DNA of 64,000 bases from the human T2T-CHM13v2.0 reference genome, Homo sapiens. Below, piece after piece: positions 1 to 48,900 of this stretch. How positions within the stretch are numbered: the stretch's first letter is position 1; each line of letters opens with the position of its first letter. The notes beneath the pieces were generated by a model, which saw only the letters and a list, made by a program, of their open reading frames with translations, was not told where the DNA came from and searched no databases. The position numbers and the translations under genes are program-made. The stretch lies in NCBI RefSeq assembly GCF_009914755.1, contig NC_060930.1. One strand, 5' to 3'.

Positions 1-333
1 CCAAACAGCCAGTCTTGGGTTTATTCCAGTTTTTCGTTTTTCTATCATACATCTTCACCTACAGTCCCAGATGAGCAGAACAGCTTTAAGCATTGTGCAA
101 TTACACATACAGGCATCTATAAGGCATTCTCATATTGGATGTCAATCAGTCTCATGGCAAATTTAATAACAGTAGCAGTTGTCAAGCATACCCAAAATAA
201 ACTAAATTATCCATCCAACCTTTTGTATTTAAGGGCTTTTTTTATTATGTGTTTTAGAAAAACACTTTCACTTTCAGCAGTGTCCTATCTATGATCAGTC
301 TCTCCTGAGAGGTTTTTTAAATAAGATGGAATG

Positions 334-14310: not shown

Positions 14311-16710
14311 TTACATAGTGACCTCAGGGCACTATAAGACCTCAGGACACCACTATTCAGTTTCCTAAATGGCATCAAATTGATTCTGATGTAATCATAT
14401 TTGAGTTCAGTAATACTTTTTGTTGCCCAGATATTAGTAGGCACAAATAATTTATTCTTAATTTTATTATTACTAAAATACTTTGTTTAGTTAGTCTGAT
14501 TGTCTAGTTTTTAGCTAATCTGATTTGTTTATTTAATTTGATTTTTCAGTGAGGTTTCCAGTTGTTATGGGATCATCTAACCAAGAGTTAGAGCATTATC
14601 TGAAAATATACATAGACCACGCATACAGATAACTTTAAAATATGCTTAGGCTGCACTATTATCTAAAAACCTTAAAATGCCATGCAAGTTTGTGTCACTT
14701 GCATGAGGTGGATGTCAGACATGATGTTTGACAACTTTGGGAGCCATCACATTGAAGATCATGAGGGCAGACATGATGCCATGAACCCATATGGGACCAG
14801 CATTGTTTCCTGATACTGACAAGAGAAGGCATCCTCTGTTCGTGCATATGCTTGCCAGTTAGGACTACTTGCTGATGGTTTTTGTTCAAATAAAAGTTGC
14901 CACTAAAAGGATACTAACTTAAAGAAATTATCACTCTCTGTCTCTGGAGAAGCCTAGCATATTCATTTATGATTATTTTAAGAGTGAGGCAAGTTATGAC
15001 TTGCCTATAAATGTCTCTGCTATATATAATTATATTTTTCTAAACCTTAACTTGATTTCAAACTTAAGTCTCCATTCCGCTGAGTGCAGAAAAATCATCC
15101 CAGCCAATTCAGATTAATTTTGATCAGAAGTTCCTTTGTCAGGGATTTATTTTTCCCCTTCTCTTTTTCCTGGCTTGGATTTAAGTTCTGGAGGCACTGG
15201 TGGCAGGGAGCAGCTGATCTTCTCACCTTTCCATGTTATTGTGTCCACTGACAACATCTGCATCCTGGCCAGCACTGGTCTATGTTGAAGCTACTGCATC
15301 CTCCCTGCCTTCCTGTGAAAGCAATTGTGTGTGCAGTTTTCTCTGCCAGACTTGCTTCACTCTTGCTAGTGCAGTGAAACATCCTATAGATACTTCTACA
15401 GGATTGCGCCTCACACAGAGTGGTGTGGACAACTCTGTGAGGCTTGCTGCCTCCCAGACTCCCCTTTAGTCAGAGGTCCTCTCTGTGTTCCAAACCCATC
15501 TGAGGCTTTTATTGGATAAGTGACACAGTGTATAGAACCCATATTAAAGGCCATGCTAATATTTTAGATATTGCTGCCTCTTGAGCTCTCTTCTGAGCCT
15601 GGACAACCTTTATCTTGCAGACATATGTAGGTAGGTAGTAGAAGTCTTTTATATCTACTGTTTAATGCATAAACTTTATGTTCAAAGTAAATCAGGCTTA
15701 CGTTACTCAAAATGAAGTTATCTGAAAATCAAAATTCCCTTTCTTGCAAATCATTGTTTTTGTACTTAAAAATAATGTTCTCTTTTCTTGTTCAACACTA
15801 ATTTTTCTGCTGCGATAACCCTGCCCTGAGTTAATGCATATAAAGATCTAGTCTGAATGGTGAGAGAGTCATAGGTTTATAAGACCACAACAACAATCAA
15901 ATAATTACAGTGAATAAAAAGTCATATTGATTAACACATCAAAAGAATAACAACCTATAGCTGGTTGTTCTTTCATTGCTTTATCAGATCAAGCCCACTG
16001 TTTGAAATGGATAAAAGAGAATAATGAGTAGGATGTCTGGGTGAGAGATTCTTTTTCCTCTTGCTTTACAAAAATAGTGACAATTTTTATACTCAAATAT
16101 ATATGAAATGTTACTGATAAGTAAAATTTCAGAATTTAACTCTGTAATTTTTGATGTGCAATCTTGCAGAGAAAAGAACTTTAGTTGAAGCAATACAGTA
16201 TCAAATAATTGTTTTAAGAGTTTGAATTTTAGAAAAGCTGTCTCAGGTGAAGGGGCAGTTAGTAATGATAAAATTGACTAAATGTGAGGTTTATCTTGTC
16301 TTACGGGGGTAGTTTTATTAGGAACAGCACTCATTCTTTACTTCAAACCTGTAATAGCTTCTTCTTCCTTTTCCTTATAAAATTTGAACAATTCAACACA
16401 GCACTTAGTGACAACTGGGAACTGACTTGAACCCATAGTATTTTCAGGCTTTGCCTTTTCTCTGTGTACTTTTGTAAGTCTGCCCCTCAGGGCCCACTGG
16501 GCTTCTGCTTTCCTCTCAAACACATTGAATTTTTCCAGCTGCACAAACTGAGACAGCCTATTCCCCTCACCAGGAGGTGTTGCCTTCCTCACAGCGAATG
16601 AGCTACTCCTTTCCTTCCACTCCACCTCATATCTCTCTCAGTCTCTGTCACTGCCCCCTTTTCCCCCATCATAAGGAATCTCCAGGCTCTCTCATAGCTC
16701 TCCTACAGCC

Positions 16711-16930
16711 GATCATTAAAGTTAACATATATTATGGATATTTATGTAGTAAAAACAGGACTAGACACAGAAGATTAAAACTTGGGGTTTAAAACCCTGC
16801 TTTAAACATCAGACCAAGTCGATCATTAAAGTTAACATATATTATGGATATTTATGTAGTAAAAACAGAACTAGACACAGAAGATTAAAACTTGGGGTTT
16901 AAAACCCTGCGTTAAACATCACACTAAGTC
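16711..16930. repeat. Tandem duplication, 2 x 110 bp
   Basis: Unit starting gatcattaaagttaac at 16711 and 16821; 4 substitutions. Confidence 0.95.
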
Positions 16931-17610
16931 ATTTCAGTTCTTTGAGCATCAGCTCAGCCTGTGGATTTCATAACTGTCCCTGCACTCTTTTCAGTTGAAG
17001 TTTATTGGCTAAAGTTTTCAACTTCTCGTGTACGGAAACCAAGTCTCAATTTCAAACAGCGATTTTACTCCGTAACTATCTGCTAAATAAAATGGAATGC
17101 TGGATGAGAAGCAAAAAGCTTACTGATCAGTCTAATGGGATAACTGGGGAAAATAATGGTAATGTTTAGTTATTTTATTTTATTCTTATTGACAAGGGAT
17201 AGGTAAGGAGTTGGTCAGGGACTACCCTGTCCCTTCCCTTTATTTTAGCCAATGATTGTGAGTTCCTTCTCCTATAACCAAGTTTTATTGCGCTTTCTTT
17301 GTAAAACTAAGGAGAGGTAGAATATAGTAGTTCATAGCAAAGAAAAAGGCAGAAGATTAACTACTAATTCACAATTCACTTGACAAGCTTCTGATTAAAT
17401 TCACAAAGTCTTGCCAGGTAAATACTAAATCATGCCACTTTATTTCAAAGAGGACAAAAAATACTTCAATTTCTTGACAACAACCTAAGCCTTTTCAGTA
17501 GTTCAACAAGTGGCATTAGGTGTTTTAGCTCATCACTATAGCTTCACGTTTTATCATGGGTTCATGCTGATGAGATTATCTATTTCAAATAAGACAAAAA
17601 ATAAGCTTAC

Positions 17611-17671
17611 CTCCATCCTTCTTAGCAAATCACATCGGTTATTCAATTATGTGTTCTTTGTTTGTGGGTAC
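17611..17671 (-). other. KHDRBS2: Candidate non-coding/poison exon of KHDRBS2 downstream of the poly(A) site (61 nt)
   Basis: Strong acceptor tctttttctattccttctcattatttcag|G and strong donor GAG|gtaagc; same strand as the gene; unique sequence; stops in all three frames. Confidence 0.7.
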
Positions 17672-18698
17672 CTGAAATAATGAGAAGGAATAGAAAAAGA
17701 AAATTAAATATAACTCAACAGCATTTTGTAAAAGGCAAATATTTACAATTTTAATTGATGACAGACACACACTTCATAATACGATTAGCATGCAACTCCA
17801 GCTGCAAAAACTGAACAGCAATATGCCTAAGCTGGTTAGCAGCAAAAAAGTAAACCAATCACATCGACAAAAAGCCACCATAAACAAAAAAACTGTATTT
17901 AAAAGATTAACAGTTTTGGCATTCATCCCTAGCATCAAGTCTTTCACTTTCTTTTTTTCCATCAAAATTTAGCTTACATTTGAAGTTAGCAAGAGTTGCA
18001 TTACTATTATTGTTAATTTTAGTTCTGTTTATTGCCTTGAGGGTTATATAATGTCAAATAATTTTGGTGCCTCTAGTTAATTTTAATTAGTTGTTTTAAT
18101 AGCCTATAGACCTATTTGTTATATTTTTGTAGGTTTACTTTTTTAACTATCAGGAACTTAATAACTGAGAATATTTAACATTACTGTTGCATAGGCAAAA
18201 TTACAGAGTTACTATTAGTGTTACCTGTTTAACGTTTAGTCATCCTTTGAGTCCTGCGACATATTTCCTTAATAATCATCAGCCATCAAGTCTGATAGTC
18301 TCAAAAGAAATATCAGCCCTCTAAACTGCCTTCTAGGGCGGTGATATTTAGCACTGAAAATTACAAATAAAGTTTTTGAGGTTGAATAGCAACAACTGGC
18401 CAGTGACACTGATGATTTGTTTGTCAAAACAAATTGTTATAAACTACGCGAATGAAGTCCACGCACTCCTTTGAGTGAAAACAATAAAGTGAATCTACGC
18501 AATGCTTACATGTTGGATGGGATATTTAATGTGCGGGGAAACTCAAAGGTTGAAGAACTAGGCATTTAGACAGTGGTAAGTGGTAATCTTACCTCTTTAT
18601 ACTCCATTACTCTTTCTCACGAGAGACATGCTAATGCAAACAAGTCAATCAGAATTTGTGTTTAGCAAGATAAAGCTTAGAGGATAGTTTAAAATCCA

Positions 18699-18704
18699 TT
18701 TATT
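18699..18704 (-). terminator. Distal polyadenylation signal AATAAA of KHDRBS2
   Basis: Plus strand tttatt at 18699-18704, about 1 kb after the stop; U/GU-rich sequence (ttctgattgacttgttt) follows on the minus strand. Confidence 0.65.
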
Positions 18705-19252
18705 ATTCTAAATCCATTTTTTTCCATTAACATGTTATACATTAGTGTTTACTAACCATGATTCATGTAACAGTTTAGTTTGTTAACTTTTAAATTATTT
18801 AACAACCATAAGTTATTAATACATTTTTAAGTATTACACAAATATCTTAAAACAGACTTGGGTTCATTTTTGTAATTTTTAAATAGAAAACATTTTAGGC
18901 ATCTCTTGAAGAAGAAATAAAGCAGGCATTTAAAGCTAGAAAACAAGTAATTCCAAATTTAATTTTTACAAAAGTTTTCAGCTTTATTGACAAATTATGG
19001 CAAACATATTTGACAAATTGTGGTTTCCTATTTAGAGAAGCTTACACATGGAACTTTATGTGTGTTTTTTTTTCTTTTTTAACAAATACAGGTTAAAACA
19101 CTGAACAAATTCAGTTAGCTACATACATACAGTAGCTGCTTGTTTTCAACCCCATTAAAACAGCATTAAAATTAAATTTACAAACTTAATATCAAACATC
19201 TTTGTCTAACTAACAGATATTAAAAGACAGGTTAAAACATCTTATCTACAAC

Positions 19253-19258
19253 TTTATT
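19253..19258 (-). terminator. Candidate proximal AATAAA in the KHDRBS2 3'UTR (another at 18983-18988)
   Basis: Plus strand tttatt; usage cannot be shown from sequence. Confidence 0.35.
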
Positions 19259-19686
19259 ATCAGCTAGTTCAAAAATCATATTACAGTCTTTTAGCAACCC
19301 TAAACAAAGTTTCTGCTAGTTGGTTGAGACTCAAAATCTGTTAACAAATTCATGCTTTTCCTCAAAAAAAAAAAAAAGAAAAAGAAAAAAAAAAGATTAC
19401 ACACAACAATGAAAAACAACCAAGAGAATATCATCCTACTGAAAGGTTTATAGACTATGCTTGCTAATGTCTTTTTCAGTCTGTTTTGTAAAATAATACT
19501 AGTGTCAATGTCACGCCAACAGTACAGAGGGAAATACTAGAAATATATGGGAGTAATCATGAGCAGTTATCCCTAGAATAGAAACAAACAAACAAAAAAA
19601 GGACTATTACTTGTCTTGTTGCTGTTTATGTGGAGACCACAGGCTATGAATTGTCTTTGAGGTGAGGTCACAGGTGGGAAGGACCT

Positions 19687-19784
19687 TCAATATCTACCAT
19701 AGGGGTGTTCCCTGTATCCCCCTCTGGCTGACCTTTGCGGTGGTGCCTTCAAGCTAGAGCGGGTTGTGGCCCATTCTTCTGGTG
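19687..19784 (-). CDS. KHDRBS2: KHDRBS2 (SLM-1) last coding exon, coding part with C-terminal PY-NLS
   Basis: Acceptor tttctctttttcacag|CACCAGAAG...; translates (A)PEEWATTRSSLKAPPQRSARGGYREHPYGRY then TGA (19687-19689). YREHPYGRY is the Sam68/SLM C-terminus, and the preceding residues match SLM-1 rather than Sam68 or SLM-2 as I recall them. Confidence 0.96.
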
Positions 19785-20091
19785 CTGTGAAAAAGAGAAA
19801 GATAGTAACACACACATGACTTCACAGTTACCAAAAATAGTCATTTAAGACACAATAGTTGACCGAGAAAAAGAAAACAAAAGATCTCAACACCGAACGC
19901 TAAAGCCTATTTTTTCCACATCGTGAGACCATCAAAAAAGTGTGTGTATATAAATGTGTACTGTGTATTTATTATGTGTTAGATTTAAATGCCACAAAAT
20001 AGAAAGAGGAGTATCAATGTAAACCCCTGCCCATAAAATCTTTTTACATAGAATTCTTAAAAATAAATAAATAAATTGGATATAGGAAACC

Positions 20092-20284
20092 AGTAGTCCT
20101 TAGCCCTTGAATAACTTGAGAATCACCTGGAAATATTAAACAATCAAAATAAAAGATAACTAACACCTGCTCTCTGTCCCCCAAATCTACTGATTAGAAA
20201 ACTCTATGGGCTGGGACCTACGGTTTGGTATTTTTCAAATACTCCCCAGATGATAGTTATATGGTCCAGGGTTGAGATCCATTG
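20092..20284. mobile_element. MER5-like hAT DNA transposon remnant
   Basis: gaatcacctgg...ctactgattagaaactct...tccccagatgat...gggttgagatccattg pattern. Confidence 0.65.
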
Positions 20285-21192
20285 TGTTAAATTGTATAGA
20301 GAAAGTGAGAGACAAGCAGAATATAGAGTAGAAAAAACCTTAAGCAGCAAAATCAGTAAACAAAACAAAACACAAAGATATCAGTTTTTCCAAGTAAACA
20401 ACTCAGTAAATAAAGAAGTATTAGTACACCAGGAAAACTCCATTTACCTGCTAATTTTGGCTAGGTTCCAAAACATTGAGGGTAGTAGAAATCTATTATT
20501 CCAAAAAAGCAAGAAACAAGTAACCAAGCTTTTGAGTACTGTGGAAAATAGCTATTGTAAAATCTGTGTCCCCAGAAAAGAAATGCAATTCTTCTTTAAA
20601 ATAACTCAATGTTGGCTTTATGGTGACATTTTATGTGATTCCAGCAACTAGGTTATTTTGGTCTCTCAATCAGAATTTAGTTCCTCATCAAGAGCAGATT
20701 TCATGCATGGGTGTGTAAAAGGAGGTGCAGACAAAGGAAAGAAGGTTACTAGAGACGCATAGATATTGATAATTGATATATAAAAAAATGGAAATATTAA
20801 CTGGGAAACAATTGCAGATTGAGGGCAACTAATGTAGGGCATTTGCCCCCAGATAGTTCCTCCGATCATAAGAATTAGTTGAGAAAGACTACTAGAAAAG
20901 CATAAAAAATTTCAATTGTACTCATTATAATATAGAGCAAATGAAAACAATCTACTATGTAGAAAAATGATCAAAAGTTTATCATTGTTGGGAAAAATGG
21001 CACTTAAGTGGACAAATATTAGTTTTTTGAGAATATTCTCACCAGGGCATTATTATTACAACTGATACCTGATAATAAATAAAAAATTATATCTCTTTCA
21101 CTGTTTAGTCTTTTATAGGATATAAAATAGGAGTAAGAAAGAAATAAATATAACAAATGTTCCCATTGCTCAAAATACAGGTTTACTTGGAT

Positions 21193-21412
21193 CAGAGGTT
21201 GGCATACTCTGGCCTGTGAACCAAATTTGGCCAGCTGATTGTTTTATAAATAGTTTTACTGGAACACAGGCATGCTGTTTATTTACATATTGTCTATTGC
21301 TGCTTTCACGATACAAAGGAAAAGTTCAGTAACTGTGATAGAGATTATACTGCTTGAAAAGCCTAAAATATTTATACTCTGGGCTTTTACAGAAAAAGTT
21401 TACAGATCTGTG
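21193..21412. mobile_element. MER58A-like hAT DNA transposon
   Basis: cagaggttggca...ttttactggaacacag...aagcctaaaatattta...tttacagaaaaagttt pattern. Confidence 0.8.
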
Positions 21413-24400
21413 CTCTAGACCATGTTGTTTTTGGTGGGAAAATGCAGATGTTGGTCTTTCTGATGTAATCTTTTGAGGGCAGGAATTTATCCCCAAACCA
21501 TTTGACTTTATCAACATAAAAATGAAAAGAATTCCATGTATTTGCTTGATTGGAACTAAATAAAACTGTTTTTGGTGTACTCAAAGGGAAAACACATTCA
21601 GTGTGTGCAAGCTTGAAAGTACCTTCTTAGCCTTATGTAAAATGAATATTTACACCACGTTTATGAGATAATCCAGGCTATATCATTGTTTTTGTCCTCT
21701 GATGGTAAAATGTATCCCAATTTATCATGGTTTTTAACAAAAAGAATGTACTACTTTTTGCTCCAATTATTCCAGAGTGTTAGAAATCCCTGGGTTTCAC
21801 TCTACAGGATTTAAGAGCTGAGACAATAGAGGCTTCAAGTTTTCCCAGGAAATAGAAGTCCCAGGTCCTTTTTTAGATTCTGAATGTTCCTGAAAAACAG
21901 CTAAACAATCATGAGCGGAGTGACAGAATACTTGTCACATACACTCCCAGATTTTTTCAGAATTTTAAATTGACATAAACCTAGGGACTTGCTACAGAGG
22001 ACATAAGTGTTTAATAACTACTCATCAACTTGGCTTCAGTTGACTTTTTCTAAATCTCTAGGGCAGTTAATTGATGAGCTAAAACTCTTCATTTCCTAAA
22101 TGTTAGCCAACATTAGAATAGGGACTGTTGCTATTCACTGTTGTTTCCCAAGTGCCTGGGAGAAATTCAATGCCTAGTTAGGGCTGAATGTAGTGAAAGG
22201 TTACATGAAAGAAAGGATGGATGAATGAACAAGGGAACTATGCAGAAAGTTCCAGTGATAATTCAAAAAACAGAAACAGTTGAGCTAAAGAAATTTAACA
22301 TTTATTTAAAAAACTCTTTAATTAGAAATCTTATATATTTGTTATAGAGTTAAAGATCAGACTTCTTACTCAAAAGGGTTATCTAAGTATCAAAAATATT
22401 TCACTATTGAATTCAATGAAGTAATCGTAGTGCGATCTCATTATTAAAAAGTACAAAAGTATCATATTTCATGGCACAAATATGTGCTCTTTTATAACGC
22501 TCTGCTTCTATGTGAATTAATACTATGCTCTTTCTCCTTGCTCAAGGCTAGGAAAATGGAAATTATTGTTAGTTCATGATACTTGTACGTGGAAAAGTAA
22601 ATCGCCAGCCAAAGTGATTTCCTATCCAAGCAAAAGTAAGTTTCTAATTTTCCAAGATTCCATACCATTAGCAGAGGAAATTAAGGACTTATTTCACTTA
22701 ATTCAGACCTTGCTTCCATTGTTTACATGTTCTTGGTAACAATAGCAAAGAGAGATCAGGAAAAGTATTATTTTTATTTGTGTCCATCTTTATCTTTCCT
22801 AATATCAGAATGTTTATGTATAGTTACACATTTACAATTGCCACATGATAATGCACGTCAGTTTTTCTTAGTGAAAATATGTTCTTTGGATTGAGATTGG
22901 AGAGTACTGAACCAATGAACGTTTTTCCAGTGCCACCATAGAGTGTGTCATTGAACTTTATATGGTTGGCCAAGCCCCTCATTGCTCACCAGCGATATTT
23001 AGGCCTCTGGATTTCTTCACTGCAAGTACCACATATAGAAGGGATTCTAACCTGAGTCCCATGGAACCTTGAGCATGGAAGAGGCCCAAACATAGGGAGA
23101 GACAAATCATGACTGGGTTCCTCATGATGGGAGTTTCTCTGAAATTTGAAGTTGTAAAGACCCACGAATGAACTTAGAATTTATCTGTCCTCTTGGGTCT
23201 CTCAGTAGACAAGCAGATTCTAAATATTTAAAGCCTTCCTACGAATTTTAGAGTCCTGTTTTTTTCTAGTCCCATGGTGTGGTCTAAGATGTCATTTAAA
23301 AACTCATTGCATCCAGTGAAATTTAGAAATTTCTTTATCCTTTAGGGAAATGATAAAATAAGTAAGATTCTCTCAATATCAGGATCATTGTCACATGAGA
23401 AGCACTGGCTAGGCTATGAATTAATCCAATAACAAATTCCTCCTCAAAAAAGGTACCAAATAACTATACGCCAAATTGAAATTATGGAATGGGTTACATA
23501 ATTGTGAATCTGAAAATAGCAAATCAGGATATGAGAAACAGAAGTTAAGTGACTTGATCCAATTGCCACCCTTTTTTGGCTTCCAATTCAGGCTTTAAAG
23601 TATCATATATTATAAGAAATATTAGATAAATTTATATTTATTATATGAATAATAAAGCATCACTAAACACATTTTTTATTTATTGAAGATCTCCTATATG
23701 CCAGTTACTATACTATGTCCTGCATATAAGGACAGTTTAAGGGGCCCATAAAAGACACAGGAAAAAATGAACCTGAAATTTCATAGGTTATGACACAATT
23801 TTAATTGATGTTTTAAGAAAATGCTGGGGAAAGCACAGGGAAGGGAGGTCTAACTTTCATCATTCAGTTGAACTTGCATTGAACTCTAACATTTAATCAT
23901 CTCAAAGAAGAGATTTTCTGAGCAAATATACTTAGTAAGAACACAGGTGCTGTTTAACTTATCTAAGAGAATTCACTTTCTTTAAAGACTTTCCTGTGTT
24001 AATTATTTTGTATTATCTGGCCTTGTTTCTAAACTGGACTCTAAGATCTATGAAAGGAGAAATCGTCTACAGTGGTAGACACTGAATAAGAGCAAATAAG
24101 AATATTTGTAAGCTGCATATAAATAAATGGTGCTACTAAATAAAAAAGGGGTTTCAAACCAATTATGCAAAATAAGTAAAATAGAACTTTTCAGAAAGGC
24201 ATTATTAGCAATTAGGTTGTCATGTTGCATGTATACAGTATATGTCAATATTTCTTTCAAAAGTTCTATCTGTTTTTTATTAACTTAGGCTGCTATTTTA
24301 CCCAGTGAATCAGGTTTTACAGACTGCCTAGAGTGCATCTCTATTTCATGGTAGTCAGCGTCACTGAGGAACATTTGACTGTGATAGAAGAATGTAAATT

Positions 24401-45990: not shown

Positions 45991-48900
45991 AAGGATTCTA
46001 CTCCATGTCCACCCCTAAGTGCAGTCTTTCCCAAAGTTGTATCATGAACTCACTTGGCTGTCTATCTTCTTCATCTTTGCCATCAGGTCCATTCCTAAGC
46101 CTTCATTGACCACAAACTCTGTAAGTTCTATAAAGAAATTTCCAATATAAAAATAGAAGTTGTAACATTAGCATCAAAGTGGCATGACTGTTTAAAAATA
46201 TTGGGTTTAATTCTGTTAAGGTTAAAAATATACATTTTCCATTCAAATGCTAAAAGCCAATTATTTTAGTTAAATGCAAAATTACAGTGATTTGGGAAAA
46301 CATTAGTTTATTTGAAAGTAACCACATTCAAGCAAGCTTGAATTTTGATAACTAAATTAAATAAATGAGTAGTAGTCTCCGAATCCAGTCATGATTAACA
46401 CTATCAATACTACAAGCTAGTATTAATACTAATACTGTAAGTAGATAGAAGTGAAGTTATATACTATTTATCGGCTGCTGTTAATTTCAAGGGATGAGAA
46501 ATGAAATGCTCTGAGTCATTAAAATAGATAGGTATAACAAACAAGTATGATACATCCAGTCATAATGGAAAACCATGGGAAAGATAATATATTCTATACG
46601 TAACTGCTATTATGAGTTAATTCCTATAGAGTTAAAAATTCTTAAACAATCTCTTTTTATAATAAAATCACAGGTGCCAATATCATTGGAATGGACAAGC
46701 TATTTAAATATAAAAAATATATAGCTTATTTAGCCAGCATTTGGTGCACATATTTTAGACAGTTAATTTTTCATTCAAGATTTTTTCCATTTAGAAATTG
46801 GCCTTTAATCTGAGGACTTCAAGATAATTAAAACATACAAGTTAATCTCTCTGATATTAGAAATTAGTGCTCACATGTGTGATTATTTGCTTTGCTGAGA
46901 ATTCAGTTTCCTTACATTCACATTGTTATGAAAATAAACCACATCAACCCTTTAAACTCCCTAAATAACTTTTATTTTACACATTTTAAGTATAGGAATA
47001 TTAAAATATATTCAAAGAAGCAGAAATATCTCAACAATTTTTACTCAAAAATTGAAAAATTGATCATTTTGTGTACTAAAAAATATTAAATAAAATATAT
47101 TGTCTTTTTGCATGTATATGTTTCAATCCAAATGCAAATACATCTCTCTGTGCTCAAATATCACTGGCTCTCACAGACTAACAAAGCAAAGATCATGGGT
47201 TTTATTAGTATATTTCTAAAGTATCTTTGAAATTCCATTAAGATTAAATAATTTTTAAATATTTTTGAAATTTTATTACTGTATTATTTACTTATTCAAT
47301 GCATTCAATGAATAATGTTACATGGAAAGCCTTGTGCTACAGGGCAGTCATGTTTGTGTATAAATGTAACATAACTTTTTGTCTTCCAAAATTAACGAGT
47401 ACACTAAATACATTAAACATAAATAGATATATAGGTATATTGATAGATAGATAGTAAACAGTATAACTTCCTGCAGTTGTTTTTCTGACTGGTTTGTTTT
47501 GAGAAAGTCAAAGATGTAAATCTCCCACTCACAGCCAACTTATTGTGAGACAAGAAAAGACCATAGTCTCATGATGGAGAATAGCGAAGTCTCCATTCTG
47601 GGTTCCACTTGGAATACAATCAGTACTTTTTCTAAAAATTATATACAGAATCCAAAAACAGTATTTGAAATTAAAATTGAGAATTGCTGTGTGTCATTTT
47701 GGACAAATCATTTAATCTCACCAACTCCCAGTTTCCTGATCTTTAATATGGGCAATAGTGATGTCTACTTGAAGTATCAATGAGATAACCTGTGATAGGG
47801 CTGTTTTAAGTGTCTAGTACATATCAGGTGCTCAATAACTATTAATAATTGGTATTTGTCAACTCAGTAAACATATAGAAGCAAAGCTTCTCTTTTTCGT
47901 ATACATAAAGGTTGCAGCACTGGAGAGATTTCATCTTCTTGAAATATTCTGAAACATGAAATAACCATATATGCCCTCTTAAGTTTTAGTTGATGGTATT
48001 TAATGTTCACAGGATGAAATATAGGCGGATTATTCATGAGGACAGTGACATATTTGCTCTACTCATAGATTAAGAATCAAGATAGATGATCTATATAAGG
48101 CATCTAGTGTAGAATTATGATCAGCTTTGCAATGATTCCTTTTATAAAAAATGGGTATTTTGCCTCATTTGAGGCAACTTCATACCTCAAATAAGAAGGA
48201 AATATATTTATATATGCTTTTGCTTTTTGAATATAACAATGTGCATACAATTCTGCAAATTATCTCCCTTTATAAACACTCTTCAATATCTTCTTTTCAG
48301 TTTAGCTTTTATTTTTTGCTTACTTTGACCCTTTATTACATGAATGAGCGGTGAGCAATTTTATAACAAAACACTAATCTTTTGTTTTATTATGTAGAAT
48401 TATTATTAGAACATAGCAAAAATTTTCTATAAATAATGCTTTCCACTGACTAATTAGGCTCAGTGGTACATGACGTTATTAAATGAACTGTTACATGCTT
48501 TTGGTACAAGTATATAGAAGCTATTGAACCCTAGTTTGAAATGGACATAATTTTAACTATATCACGTGTTTCTTTGGCTGTCACAATTCATGAGTTGTCA
48601 GTAGGATTTCAGTGCTGTAAATATCAGTATAATCTCTAGTTACTTCAATACTTTAATCTAGTTGACTTTGCTACTGAATTCATTGGTGCAAGCTGCACTA
48701 CAGCTGTGTGTTAATAGTGATTTATATTCTTCCTCATTCAAGTCCCAAATGGAATCTCACCTGTGTTTGCATGATGTTCCAAAATCACTTGTTACTTATT
48801 AAGAAAAAGGTTATTTTCATGCATCAGACTTTAGAAATTTAAATGACCAGAGTCTGGGGAAAGAATATGTGAGTTGACAACAATGATTTCATTTTGACAG

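What the first reader, a model, noticed from the sequence alone, without database searches (positions are those of the whole stretch)
17611..19689. Post-stop splice switch at the KHDRBS2 3' end (candidate splicing-coupled NMD circuit)
Seen: a donor CAA|GTAATA (exon end 19611) lies 76 nt after the TGA, and a strongly defined 61-nt exon (17611-17671) lies about 1 kb beyond the distal AATAAA. Established: an exon junction more than 50-55 nt after the stop triggers NMD, and SLM-1/SLM-2 levels in mouse are known to be cross-regulated by 3'-end splicing coupled to NMD. Inference: splicing 19611->17671 removes all 3'UTR poly(A) signals and turns a full-CDS mRNA into an NMD target, so splicing competes with polyadenylation here. 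Probably the primate version of a known circuit rather than a new one.
Basis: partly seen in the sequence, partly recalled or inferred. Interest (0 to 1): 0.8.

Follow-up and report, generated by a model that had tools for sequence, protein, structure and literature searches.

The report
KHDRBS2 post-stop splice, NMD switch
The human KHDRBS2 gene can splice away its normal 3' end from a weak splice site just after the stop codon, which should mark the mRNA for destruction; this is the human copy of a control switch already described for this gene family, so it is real but not new.

Summary
On the minus strand the TGA is at 19689-19687. A GT donor (CAA|GTAATA) ends the exon at 19611, 76 nt after the stop. 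A 61-nt exon (17671-17611) has a pyrimidine-rich acceptor and a GAG|GTAAGC donor. All four poly(A) hexamers of the annotated 3'UTR lie inside the 1939-nt intron this splice would remove.

The donor is not distinctive by sequence: 31% of the GT sites on this strand pair with U1 at least as well. Two things support it:
- **Annotation:** RefSeq lists exons 19611-19784, 17611-17671 and -24..58.
- **Paralogy (found here):** the donor core AGACAA|GTAAT.GTC recurs, 14 of 15 bases identical, 95 nt after the KHDRBS1 stop. KHDRBS3 has AAA|GTAAT 58 nt after its stop.

This layout matches the published "alternative end 2" NMD switch of SLM2 and Sam68. Those papers call it analogous to SLM2's repression of mouse Slm1.

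Most likely mechanism (inferred): a STAR protein, chiefly KHDRBS3, masks the UAAA-rich poly(A) region. Transcription then reads through, the weak donor joins exon 10, and the junctions behind the stop trigger NMD.

Junction use, NMD sensitivity and regulation in human were not testable here. Verdict: real, already known in kind, low novelty.

The parts
19687..19784 (-). Coding part of terminal coding exon 9, ending ...PYGRY and TGA (19689-19687)
   Evidence: hub annotation (coding 19687-19784)
19611..19686 (-). 76-nt post-stop segment kept in the alternative isoform. It holds one UAAA and no UUAA.
19602..19616 (-). Internal weak 5' splice site AGACAA|GTAATAGTC (junction after 19611). It lacks G at -1 and G at +5. 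It is 14 of 15 identical to a site 95 nt after the KHDRBS1 stop.
   Evidence: hub annotation (exon 19611-19784)
17672..19610 (-). 1939-nt alternative intron. It comprises the rest of the canonical 3'UTR (19610-18685) plus 1013 nt of downstream sequence, and holds 9 AATAAA/ATTAAA hexamers.
18685..19610 (-). Remainder of the canonical 3'UTR, with poly(A) hexamers at 19258, 18988, 18963 and 18704. NM_152688.4 ends at 18685.
   Evidence: hub annotation
18700..19300 (-). UAAA/UUAA-rich stretch (4-7 per 100 nt against a window mean of 2.2). It is the candidate STAR-protein binding platform and overlaps the poly(A) signals.
   Evidence: The density is explained by dinucleotide composition: 194 of 500 shuffles reach it.
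18949..19057 (-). Block around AATAAA 18988 that is 71% identical over 115 aligned columns to the KHDRBS1 3'UTR around its AATAAA, 1226 nt after that stop
17611..17671 (-). Non-coding exon 10, 61 nt, with a strong acceptor and donor. Single copy in the genome.
   Evidence: hub annotation
1..58 (-). First 58 nt of the next non-coding exon (83 nt, runs to -24). Acceptor TGTAG|GTG; donor GAG|GTGAGT lies outside the window. Single copy in the genome.
   Evidence: hub annotation

Best explanation
This is the human KHDRBS2 (SLM1) version of the STAR-family 'alternative 3' end 2' switch, a choice between polyadenylation and splicing that sets mRNA stability.

Default path: the pre-mRNA is cleaved and polyadenylated at one of the signals in 19258-18699, giving a stable mRNA.

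Alternative path:
1. A Sam68-family protein binds the UAAA/UUAA-rich distal 3'UTR. The AAUAAA hexamers themselves contain UAAA. KHDRBS3/SLM2 is the most likely protein, possibly also KHDRBS2 itself or KHDRBS1.
2. Cleavage is suppressed and transcription continues.
3. The weak internal donor at 19611 is joined to the strong exon 10 (17671-17611), then to the 83-nt exon at 58..-24, and onward to a distal end more than 118 kb away.
4. The coding sequence is unchanged, but exon junctions now lie 76 nt and 137 nt behind the stop codon. The first round of translation therefore leaves exon-junction complexes in place and the mRNA is degraded by NMD. The result is less SLM1 protein in cells that express SLM2.

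Shown here: the anatomy, the annotation, and the paralogous conservation of the donor and of one poly(A) block. Inferred: use in brain, NMD sensitivity, the identity of the regulator, and poly(A)-signal masking as the trigger.
For: Anatomy.

Annotation: RefSeq lists exons 19611-19784, 17611-17671 and -24..58, and a gene span reaching -118505 (hub table). An AATAAA lies about 32 nt upstream of that distal end.

Exon 10:
- It is the only strictly defined exon-like pair in the 10 kb after the stop.
- Its donor is in the best 0.5% of 3254 GT sites.

Paralogy:
- The pattern AGACAAGTAATNGTC occurs once in the window, at the donor, and in 0 of 100 shuffles.
- Among the 11 fetched loci it occurs only at KHDRBS2 itself and at the chr1 KHDRBS1 site 95 nt after that stop.
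- KHDRBS3 has AAA|GTAAT 58 nt after its stop.
- All three candidate junctions lie beyond the 50-55-nt NMD threshold.
- UAAA/UUAA counts between stop and donor are 1 in 76 nt, 0 in 95 nt and 0 in 58 nt, with rich stretches downstream. PMC5199341 section 10 describes the same pattern for SLM2.

Literature:
- PMC5199341 sections 9-11: an internal 5' splice site in exon 9 joined to two non-coding exons; induced by the protein and stabilised by cycloheximide or UPF1 knock-down in human HEK293 cells; called analogous to Slm1 control by SLM2; proposed to be ancestral.
- PMC11077083 passages: SLM2 represses Slm1 and Sam68 by NMD, with a minigene test for Sam68.
- PMC10066595 passage: Slm1/Khdrbs2 is the most up-regulated transcript, 1.5- to 4.7-fold, after conditional SLM2 loss in mouse.
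- PMC12830514 passages: in human PC3 and 22RV1 cells, KHDRBS3 knock-down raises KHDRBS2 mRNA and over-expression lowers it.
- Poly(A)-signal masking: PMC6909182 section 12 says AAUAAA is an optimal SAM68 site and that SAM68 binds and masks a cryptic poly(A) signal. PMC5122457 abstract and passages show the same for Aldh1a3.
Against: - No expression data could be consulted, so junction use in human tissue is unverified. The RefSeq models may be predicted rather than curated.
- The donor is weak and indistinguishable from background by sequence.
- The UAAA/UUAA density of the 3'UTR is high for the window: only 9 of 631 windows of the same 926-nt length reach it. It is not above dinucleotide-shuffle expectation, since 194 of 500 shuffles reach it.
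- Unlike KHDRBS1 and KHDRBS3, the first 300 nt after the KHDRBS2 donor hold only 2 such motifs. A donor-proximal activation mechanism is therefore less likely here.
- Exons 10 and 11 show no similarity to sequence within 20 kb downstream of the paralogs. Conservation in other mammals could not be tested.
- The primary mouse paper was not readable. That the mouse event is this same junction rests on the word 'analogous' in PMC5199341.
- A second annotated unproductive route exists, the 74-nt exon 46054-46127. It could instead be the regulated event.
- Transcripts with 3'UTR introns are not always NMD-degraded (PMC13223760, abstract start seen in the listing only).
Confidence: 0.7

Rival explanations
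1. Splicing noise or read-through. The downstream exons belong to rare read-through or model-predicted transcripts, or to an unrelated downstream non-coding transcription unit. The weak donor would be used only sporadically, with no regulatory role in human.
For: - The donor is no better than 31% of the GT sites on this strand, and 7 comparable sites lie in the same UTR.
- The alternative transcripts run more than 118 kb beyond the window (hub table), unlike the compact two-exon ends described for SLM2 (PMC5199341 section 9).
- Exons 10 and 11 have no detectable paralogous counterpart.
Against: - The donor core is 14 of 15 identical to a site at the equivalent place in KHDRBS1, which is not expected by chance.
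- The same architecture is experimentally validated in both paralogs (PMC5199341, PMC11077083).
- KHDRBS2 mRNA responds to KHDRBS3 dosage in mouse and in human cells.
Confidence: 0.12
2. A functional alternative 3'UTR isoform rather than a decay substrate. The spliced mRNA would escape or only partly undergo NMD. It would give SLM1 mRNA a different 3'UTR, changing localisation, translation or microRNA control, or giving translation-limited expression.
For: - The full CDS is retained.
- 3'UTR-intron transcripts are reported to be widespread and often highly expressed (PMC13223760, abstract start in the listing only).
- SAM68-family proteins are known to choose between alternative last exons for non-NMD purposes (PMC6909182, abstract).
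Against: - Two junctions lie 76 and 137 nt after the stop, both beyond the 50-55-nt rule.
- The paralogous isoforms of SLM2 and Sam68 are barely detectable without cycloheximide or UPF1 depletion (PMC5199341 sections 10-11).
Confidence: 0.1
3. The regulated unproductive event in KHDRBS2 is the 74-nt cassette exon 46054-46127, a classical poison exon. The post-stop splice would be a minor by-product.
For: If inserted between exons 7 and 8, the 74-nt exon gives an in-frame TGA after 7 codons. It has an 8-of-9 consensus donor. It is annotated in RefSeq (hub table).
Against: PMC5199341 section 11 places Slm1 control beside the alternative-end events of Slm2 and Sam68 and argues for a shared ancestral pathway. 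Donor conservation with KHDRBS1 points to the 3'-end site. The two routes are not mutually exclusive.
Confidence: 0.08

Closest known systems
Mouse Slm1 (Khdrbs2) repression by SLM2 through splicing-coupled NMD (Traunmuller, Bornmann, Scheiffele 2014, J Neurosci 34:16755). Not held here; known only through citing papers PMC5199341, PMC11077083, PMC4683092 and PMC10066595.
   Same: Same gene (the orthologue), and the same outcome: an unproductive Slm1 isoform and mutually exclusive SLM1/SLM2 expression. PMC5199341 calls it analogous to the alternative-end events.
   Different: Whether the mouse junction is the orthologue of 19611-to-17671 could not be checked, because neither the paper nor a mouse genome is on hand. 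Human brain data are lacking.
SLM2/KHDRBS3 and Sam68/KHDRBS1 'alternative 3' end 2' autoregulation (PMC5199341; PMC11077083)
   Same: - An internal cryptic 5' splice site in terminal coding exon 9, after the stop.
- Downstream non-coding exons.
- UAAA/UUAA sites downstream, with depletion just upstream of the donor.
- A predicted NMD outcome.
- Candidate donors of the form AA|GTAAT in all three genes, at 58, 76 and 95 nt after the stop.
   Different: - In the mouse, KHDRBS2 is cross-regulated by SLM2 rather than shown to autoregulate.
- In KHDRBS2 the first 300 nt after the donor are nearly free of UAAA/UUAA.
- The human alternative end extends more than 118 kb, with at least two internal exons of 61 and 83 nt, rather than two nearby exons.
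- The paralog donor positions are my inference from sequence, not taken from those papers.
SAM68 masking of poly(A) signals to steer the choice of 3' end (Aldh1a3, PMC5122457; Il1rap, PMC6909182)
   Same: A STAR protein binds at or near AAUAAA. Cleavage is suppressed and the downstream splice or exon choice is favoured.
   Different: In those cases the masked signal is intronic and masking preserves the productive mRNA. Here the masked signals would be the gene's own terminal ones, and masking would yield the unproductive mRNA. Binding to the KHDRBS2 3'UTR was not tested.
PTBP1-to-PTBP2 cross-regulation by NMD-coupled splicing (named as a parallel in PMC11077083 and PMC12830514)
   Same: One paralogous RNA-binding protein lowers another by steering its pre-mRNA into an NMD isoform, which sharpens cell-type-specific expression.
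   Different: The PTBP2 case, as I recall it, uses skipping of a coding cassette exon that shifts the frame. Here the reading frame is untouched and the NMD trigger is a junction placed behind the normal stop.

Membership tests
STAR-family (KHDRBS1/2/3) 'alternative end 2' splicing-coupled NMD switch | Internal 5' splice site inside the terminal coding exon, downstream of the stop codon | tested here: met
   CAA|GTAATA with last exon base 19611 and TGA at 19689-19687. RefSeq lists an exon 19611-19784 (hub table).
STAR-family (KHDRBS1/2/3) 'alternative end 2' splicing-coupled NMD switch | Resulting exon junction more than 50-55 nt after the stop | tested here: met
   76 nt to the first junction and 137 nt to the second.
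STAR-family (KHDRBS1/2/3) 'alternative end 2' splicing-coupled NMD switch | Downstream non-coding exons spliced on, bypassing the canonical poly(A) sites | tested here: met
   Exons 17671-17611 (61 nt) and 58..-24 (83 nt) have canonical sites and are annotated (hub table). All 4 hexamers of the UTR lie in the removed intron.
STAR-family (KHDRBS1/2/3) 'alternative end 2' splicing-coupled NMD switch | UAAA/UUAA binding sites in the region, depleted just upstream of the internal donor | tested here: inconclusive
   There is 1 motif in the 76 nt upstream of the donor and 4-7 per 100 nt in 19300-18700. Only 9 of 631 equal-length windows in this window reach that density, but 194 of 500 dinucleotide shuffles reach the count. 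Only 2 motifs lie in the first 300 nt after the donor.
STAR-family (KHDRBS1/2/3) 'alternative end 2' splicing-coupled NMD switch | Homology of the switch among paralogs (ancestral origin) | tested here: met
   - Met for KHDRBS1: the donor core is 14 of 15 identical at 95 nt after that stop, and a 115-column poly(A) block is 71% identical, E 2e-11.
- KHDRBS3: only AA|GTAAT is shared, and there is no poly(A) block (best nhmmer E 1.1).
- No similarity was found for the downstream exons.
STAR-family (KHDRBS1/2/3) 'alternative end 2' splicing-coupled NMD switch | Spliced isoform stabilised by NMD inhibition (cycloheximide, UPF1 depletion) | not testable with these tools
   No expression data are available here. 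This has been shown for human SLM2 and Sam68 only (PMC5199341 sections 10-11).
STAR-family (KHDRBS1/2/3) 'alternative end 2' splicing-coupled NMD switch | Isoform choice driven by the level of a STAR protein (SLM2) | not testable with these tools
   Indirect evidence only: KHDRBS2 mRNA rises on SLM2 loss in mouse (PMC10066595) and on KHDRBS3 knock-down in human PC3 cells (PMC12830514).
Orthologue of the mouse Slm1 event of Traunmuller 2014 | Same junction and exons in mouse Khdrbs2 | not testable with these tools
   The paper is not held. No mammalian genome other than the window's own is on hand.

The most novel reading that the evidence does not exclude
The weak donor core AGACAA|GTAAT.GTC and the poly(A) block around 18988 may be sequence-level remnants of a single ancestral cis-module that predates the vertebrate gene triplication and has been kept for about 500 million years in KHDRBS1 and KHDRBS2.

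In human KHDRBS2 this module may have been rewired in three ways:
- a 300-nt spacer free of UAAA/UUAA after the donor;
- a downstream extension of more than 118 kb;
- a separate 74-nt poison exon.

Two independent unproductive routes could then let different regulators set SLM1 dosage. The spliced isoform may be a translation-limited, Arc-like mRNA in neurons rather than pure waste.
Probability: 0.15. Interest if true: 0.5.

Novelty: already known. Interest (0 to 1): 0.2.

Why it matters
SLM1 and SLM2 set cell-type-specific neurexin splicing, and their mutually exclusive expression depends on this kind of switch in the mouse. Pinning the human cis-elements to exact bases has three practical uses:
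- It gives a concrete handle for the KHDRBS2/KHDRBS3 reciprocal regulation reported in human cells without a mechanism (PMC12830514). The elements are the donor at 19611, the poly(A) cluster at 19258-18699 and exon 10 at 17671-17611.
- It helps in interpreting non-coding variants at this locus.
- It supports the design of isoform-specific assays.

It adds no new principle. The architecture, the NMD outcome and the ancestral-origin idea are all in print for the family.

Tried and rejected
Sources that could not be read:
- Traunmuller 2014 is not held under its PMC id or its DOI.
Mouse primers could therefore not be mapped onto the human sequence, and the exact paralog donor positions could not be confirmed.
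- One literature search was rejected for syntax.

Literature searches:
- Searches for an explicit description of the human KHDRBS2 post-stop splice found none. Several 'NMD' hits were NMDA.
- Passages on Khdrbs2 in 10.1101/2021.01.27.428525, PMC12358039, PMC8558292 and 10.1101/389676 say nothing about the splice event.

Sequence tests that led nowhere:
- MAFFT of the three post-stop segments did not put the donors in register, because only the donor core is alike.
- RNA structure around the donor is no more stable than in shuffles (z = 0.34; 128 of 200 shuffles fold at least as well).
- Rfam found no family in 15000-22000.
- Exon 10 and 11 regions showed no blastn match in 20 kb downstream of each paralog.
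- A KHDRBS1 candidate 60-nt exon is no more similar to exon 10 than chance: 74 of 1000 shuffles reach the global score, and 82 of 300 reach the local score with flanks.
- The poly(A) block shared with KHDRBS1 is not found in KHDRBS3 (best nhmmer E 1.1).
- A genome-wide search with that block returns only itself, so the 71% KHDRBS1 match lies below that tool's first look (a repeat of the unanswered).
- UAAA/UUAA enrichment beyond base composition is not supported.
- The chr13 match to the C-terminal peptide (E 4.4, with an internal TAA) was treated as chance and not pursued.
Full report
**1. The observation**

KHDRBS2 lies on the minus strand. Searches show the following.
- Exon 9 begins at 19784, after ...TTTTTCACAG.
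- The frame ends ...REHPYGRY and then TGA at 19689-19687 (translation).
- A GT follows CAA at 19611 (CAA|GTAATAGTC). That leaves 76 nt between the stop and the would-be junction.
- Further on, a 61-nt segment 17671-17611 is preceded by ...TTCCTTCTCATTATTTCAG and followed by GTAAGC.
- The segment starts 1014 nt beyond the annotated mRNA end (18685).
- The four poly(A) hexamers of the annotated 3'UTR lie inside 19610-17672, a 1939-nt interval. They are AATAAA at 19258, 18988 and 18704 and ATTAAA at 18963. Five further hexamers lie in 18684-17672.

Every coordinate and count in the finding is therefore correct.

**2. Is it more than chance?**

The donor on its own is not.
- It matches 6 of 9 consensus positions, as do 537 GT sites on the window's minus strand and 7 sites inside the 1-kb 3'UTR.
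- Its predicted pairing with the U1 5' end is -3.0 kcal/mol. That is equalled or beaten by 31% of the 3254 GT sites on this strand.

Exon 10 is distinctive.
- Its donor (-9.6 kcal/mol) is in the best 0.5%.
- With strict criteria it is the only exon-like pair in the 10 kb after the stop: 1 pair from 7 acceptors and 10 donors. The criteria were at least 13 of 16 pyrimidines, YAG, a donor at -7.5 kcal/mol or better, and a length of 35-250 nt.
- With looser criteria there are 29 such pairs on the minus strand and 23 on the plus strand of the window.

The first is annotation. The hub's RefSeq table lists, for other KHDRBS2 transcripts, exons 19611-19784, 17611-17671 and -24..58, and a gene span reaching -118505.
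- I fetched the flanking genome. The third exon is 83 nt, with acceptor TGTAG|GTG and donor GAG|GTGAGT.
- An AATAAA lies about 32 nt before the annotated distal end.
- Both non-coding exons are single copy in the genome, so they are not repeat-derived.

The second is paralogy. Searching the same genome with the C-terminal peptide found the last coding exons of the two paralogs. One lies on chr1 (E 6.6e-7), taken to be KHDRBS1. The other lies on chr8 (E 0.034), taken to be KHDRBS3.
- At the chr1 locus, 95 nt after the TAA, lies GACAA|GTAATTGTC.
- At the chr8 locus, 58 nt after the TGA, lies TTCAAA|GTAATTT.
- The KHDRBS2 and KHDRBS1 sites are identical at 14 of 15 positions around the junction.
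- The pattern AGACAAGTAATNGTC occurs once in the 64-kb window, at the donor, and in none of 100 shuffles.
- Among the 11 fetched loci it occurs only at KHDRBS2 itself and at that chr1 site.
- The sequence between stop and donor is otherwise not alignable. What is conserved is the donor itself.
- All three candidate donors share A at -1 and U at +5, that is, weak pairing with U1. From memory, sites lacking both G-1 and G+5 are uncommon. That fits a site meant to be used only on demand.
- All three lie just beyond the 50-55-nt NMD threshold.

That the chr1 and chr8 sites are the published 'cryptic 5' splice sites' is my inference.

**3. What the literature says**

PMC5199341 (sections 9, 10, 11 and 16 and the figure legends) shows the following for Slm2/SLM2.
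- The arrangement is shared by human, mouse and chicken.
- UAAA and UUAA sites abound, but are depleted just upstream of the internal site.
- In human HEK293 cells the isoform is induced by SLM2 and stabilised by cycloheximide.

The same paper reports that Sam68 behaves likewise, with UPF1 knock-down evidence. [quoted passage not shown] It also argues that the pathways were probably present in the ancestral gene.

Other papers add to this.
[quoted passage not shown] It says SLM2 represses Slm1 and Sam68 by NMD.
- PMC4683092 (one passage) lists the Slm2-to-Slm1 case among examples of NMD-coupled cross-regulation.
- PMC10066595 (passage) reports Slm1/Khdrbs2 as the most up-regulated transcript after conditional SLM2 loss.
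- PMC12830514 (passages) reports reciprocal KHDRBS2/KHDRBS3 regulation at the mRNA and protein level in human prostate-cancer lines, without a mechanism.

The primary mouse paper is not held. I could not verify that its junction is the orthologue of this one.

Five searches found no paper that describes the human KHDRBS2 post-stop splice explicitly.

**4. How it most likely works**

The anatomy sets up a competition. Either the transcript is cleaved at one of the poly(A) signals in 19258-18699, or it is extended and the weak donor at 19611 is paired with the strong exon 10.

Sam68-family proteins bind U(A/U)AA. PMC6909182 (section 12) states that AAUAAA itself is an optimal SAM68 site and shows SAM68 binding to, and masking of, a cryptic poly(A) signal. 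PMC5122457 (abstract and passages) shows the same for Aldh1a3.

In KHDRBS2 the motif distribution is as follows.
- It is nearly absent from 19800 to 19300: 3 in 500 nt.
- It rises to 4-7 per 100 nt across 19300-18700, exactly where the poly(A) signals lie.
- The 926-nt UTR remainder holds 40 motifs, a count reached by only 9 of 631 equal-length windows.
- The count is nevertheless explained by dinucleotide composition, since 194 of 500 shuffles reach it. The density is therefore compatible with a binding platform but does not prove one.

In KHDRBS1 and KHDRBS3 the motifs begin directly after the donor (3-8 per 100 nt). In KHDRBS2 they begin about 300 nt later.

I therefore favour poly(A)-signal masking over donor-proximal activation for this gene. 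The confidence for this step is about 0.45. A U-rich run directly after the donor may help U1 recruitment; this is an inference from recalled TIA-1-type enhancers.

Once spliced, the mRNA keeps the full CDS but carries junctions 76 and 137 nt after the stop. By the established exon-junction-complex rule that makes it an NMD substrate.

No stable local RNA structure involves the donor (z = 0.34). No Rfam family lies nearby.

**5. A further paralogous element**

A blastn comparison of the KHDRBS2 3'UTR with 20 kb downstream of each paralog gave one non-trivial hit.
- It is a 115-column block, 71% identical, E 2e-11.
- It joins window 19057-18949, around AATAAA 18988, to the KHDRBS1 3'UTR around its AATAAA, 1226 nt after that stop.
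- The identical sub-strings include CATGTGTAAG, CTAAATAGG and TTTGTCAATAAAG.
- KHDRBS3 lacks it (best nhmmer E 1.1).

Both halves of the switch, the donor and a poly(A) signal, thus show sequence-level conservation between KHDRBS1 and KHDRBS2. The downstream exons do not.

**6. Rivals**

- **Splicing noise or read-through captured by gene models.** The weak donor and the very long extension speak for it. The donor's paralogous conservation and the validated paralog switches speak against it.
- **A stable alternative-3'UTR isoform.** This is possible, because not all 3'UTR-intron mRNAs decay. The paralogous isoforms, however, are clearly NMD-sensitive.
- **The 74-nt exon 46054-46127 as the regulated event.** Inserted before exon 8 it gives an in-frame TGA after 7 codons. 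This cannot be excluded without the mouse paper, but it is not exclusive of the 3'-end switch.

**7. Comparison, novelty and verdict**

The feature meets the structural criteria of the STAR-family alternative-end NMD switch. The functional criteria could not be tested with these tools: NMD sensitivity, dependence on a STAR protein, and orthology to the mouse junction.

It is annotated in RefSeq and corresponds to a circuit published for the mouse orthologue and for both human paralogs. I rate it as already known. The modest additions are exact human coordinates, the 14-of-15 donor match with KHDRBS1, and the shared poly(A) block. Interest is 0.2.

Noticed in passing
window 46054-46127 (minus strand): Annotated alternative 74-nt exon with acceptor ...TTTCTTTATAG|AAC and donor CAA|GTGAGT (8 of 9 consensus). 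If it is a cassette between exons 7 and 8, it gives an in-frame TGA after 7 codons (TYRVCGQ*), with exon junctions 49 nt and 108 nt downstream of that TGA. That would be a classical poison-exon route in the same gene, separate from the post-stop splice.
   Followed up: partly
window 18949-19057 (minus strand); L008 1309-1422: A block of 115 aligned columns around AATAAA 18988 is 71% identical (E 2e-11) to the KHDRBS1 3'UTR around its poly(A) signal. This is non-coding conservation between paralogs separated by the vertebrate gene triplication. It is absent from KHDRBS3.
   Followed up: partly
window 19361-19394 (minus strand): A pyrimidine run of about 31 nt, almost all T, ends in GAG|G at 19362-19361 inside the 3'UTR, 249 nt after the internal donor. 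It looks like a 3' splice site apart from G at -3. If used, it would create a short 3'UTR intron that keeps the poly(A) signals. It is not annotated.
   Followed up: no
L008 2860-2919 (chr1, 2707-2766 nt after the KHDRBS1 stop): This is the first strictly defined exon-like pair downstream of KHDRBS1. It is 60 nt (TTTTCAG|GTGA ... CAG|GTATGT) and lies about 1.5 kb past the poly(A) signal, much like KHDRBS2 exon 10 (61 nt, about 1 kb past). It has no significant sequence similarity to exon 10: 74 of 1000 shuffles score as well. It is unverified as an exon.
   Followed up: partly
L007 (chr6, about 118.5 kb beyond the window start): The annotated distal end of the alternative KHDRBS2 transcripts, at -118505, is preceded by an AATAAA about 32 nt upstream. 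The alternative 3' end therefore lies about 137 kb past the canonical poly(A) site, far longer than the two-exon ends described for SLM2.
   Followed up: no
L005 (chr13): A weak match to the SLM1 C-terminal peptide (52% over 27 residues, E 4.4, one internal TAA). Probably chance.
   Followed up: no
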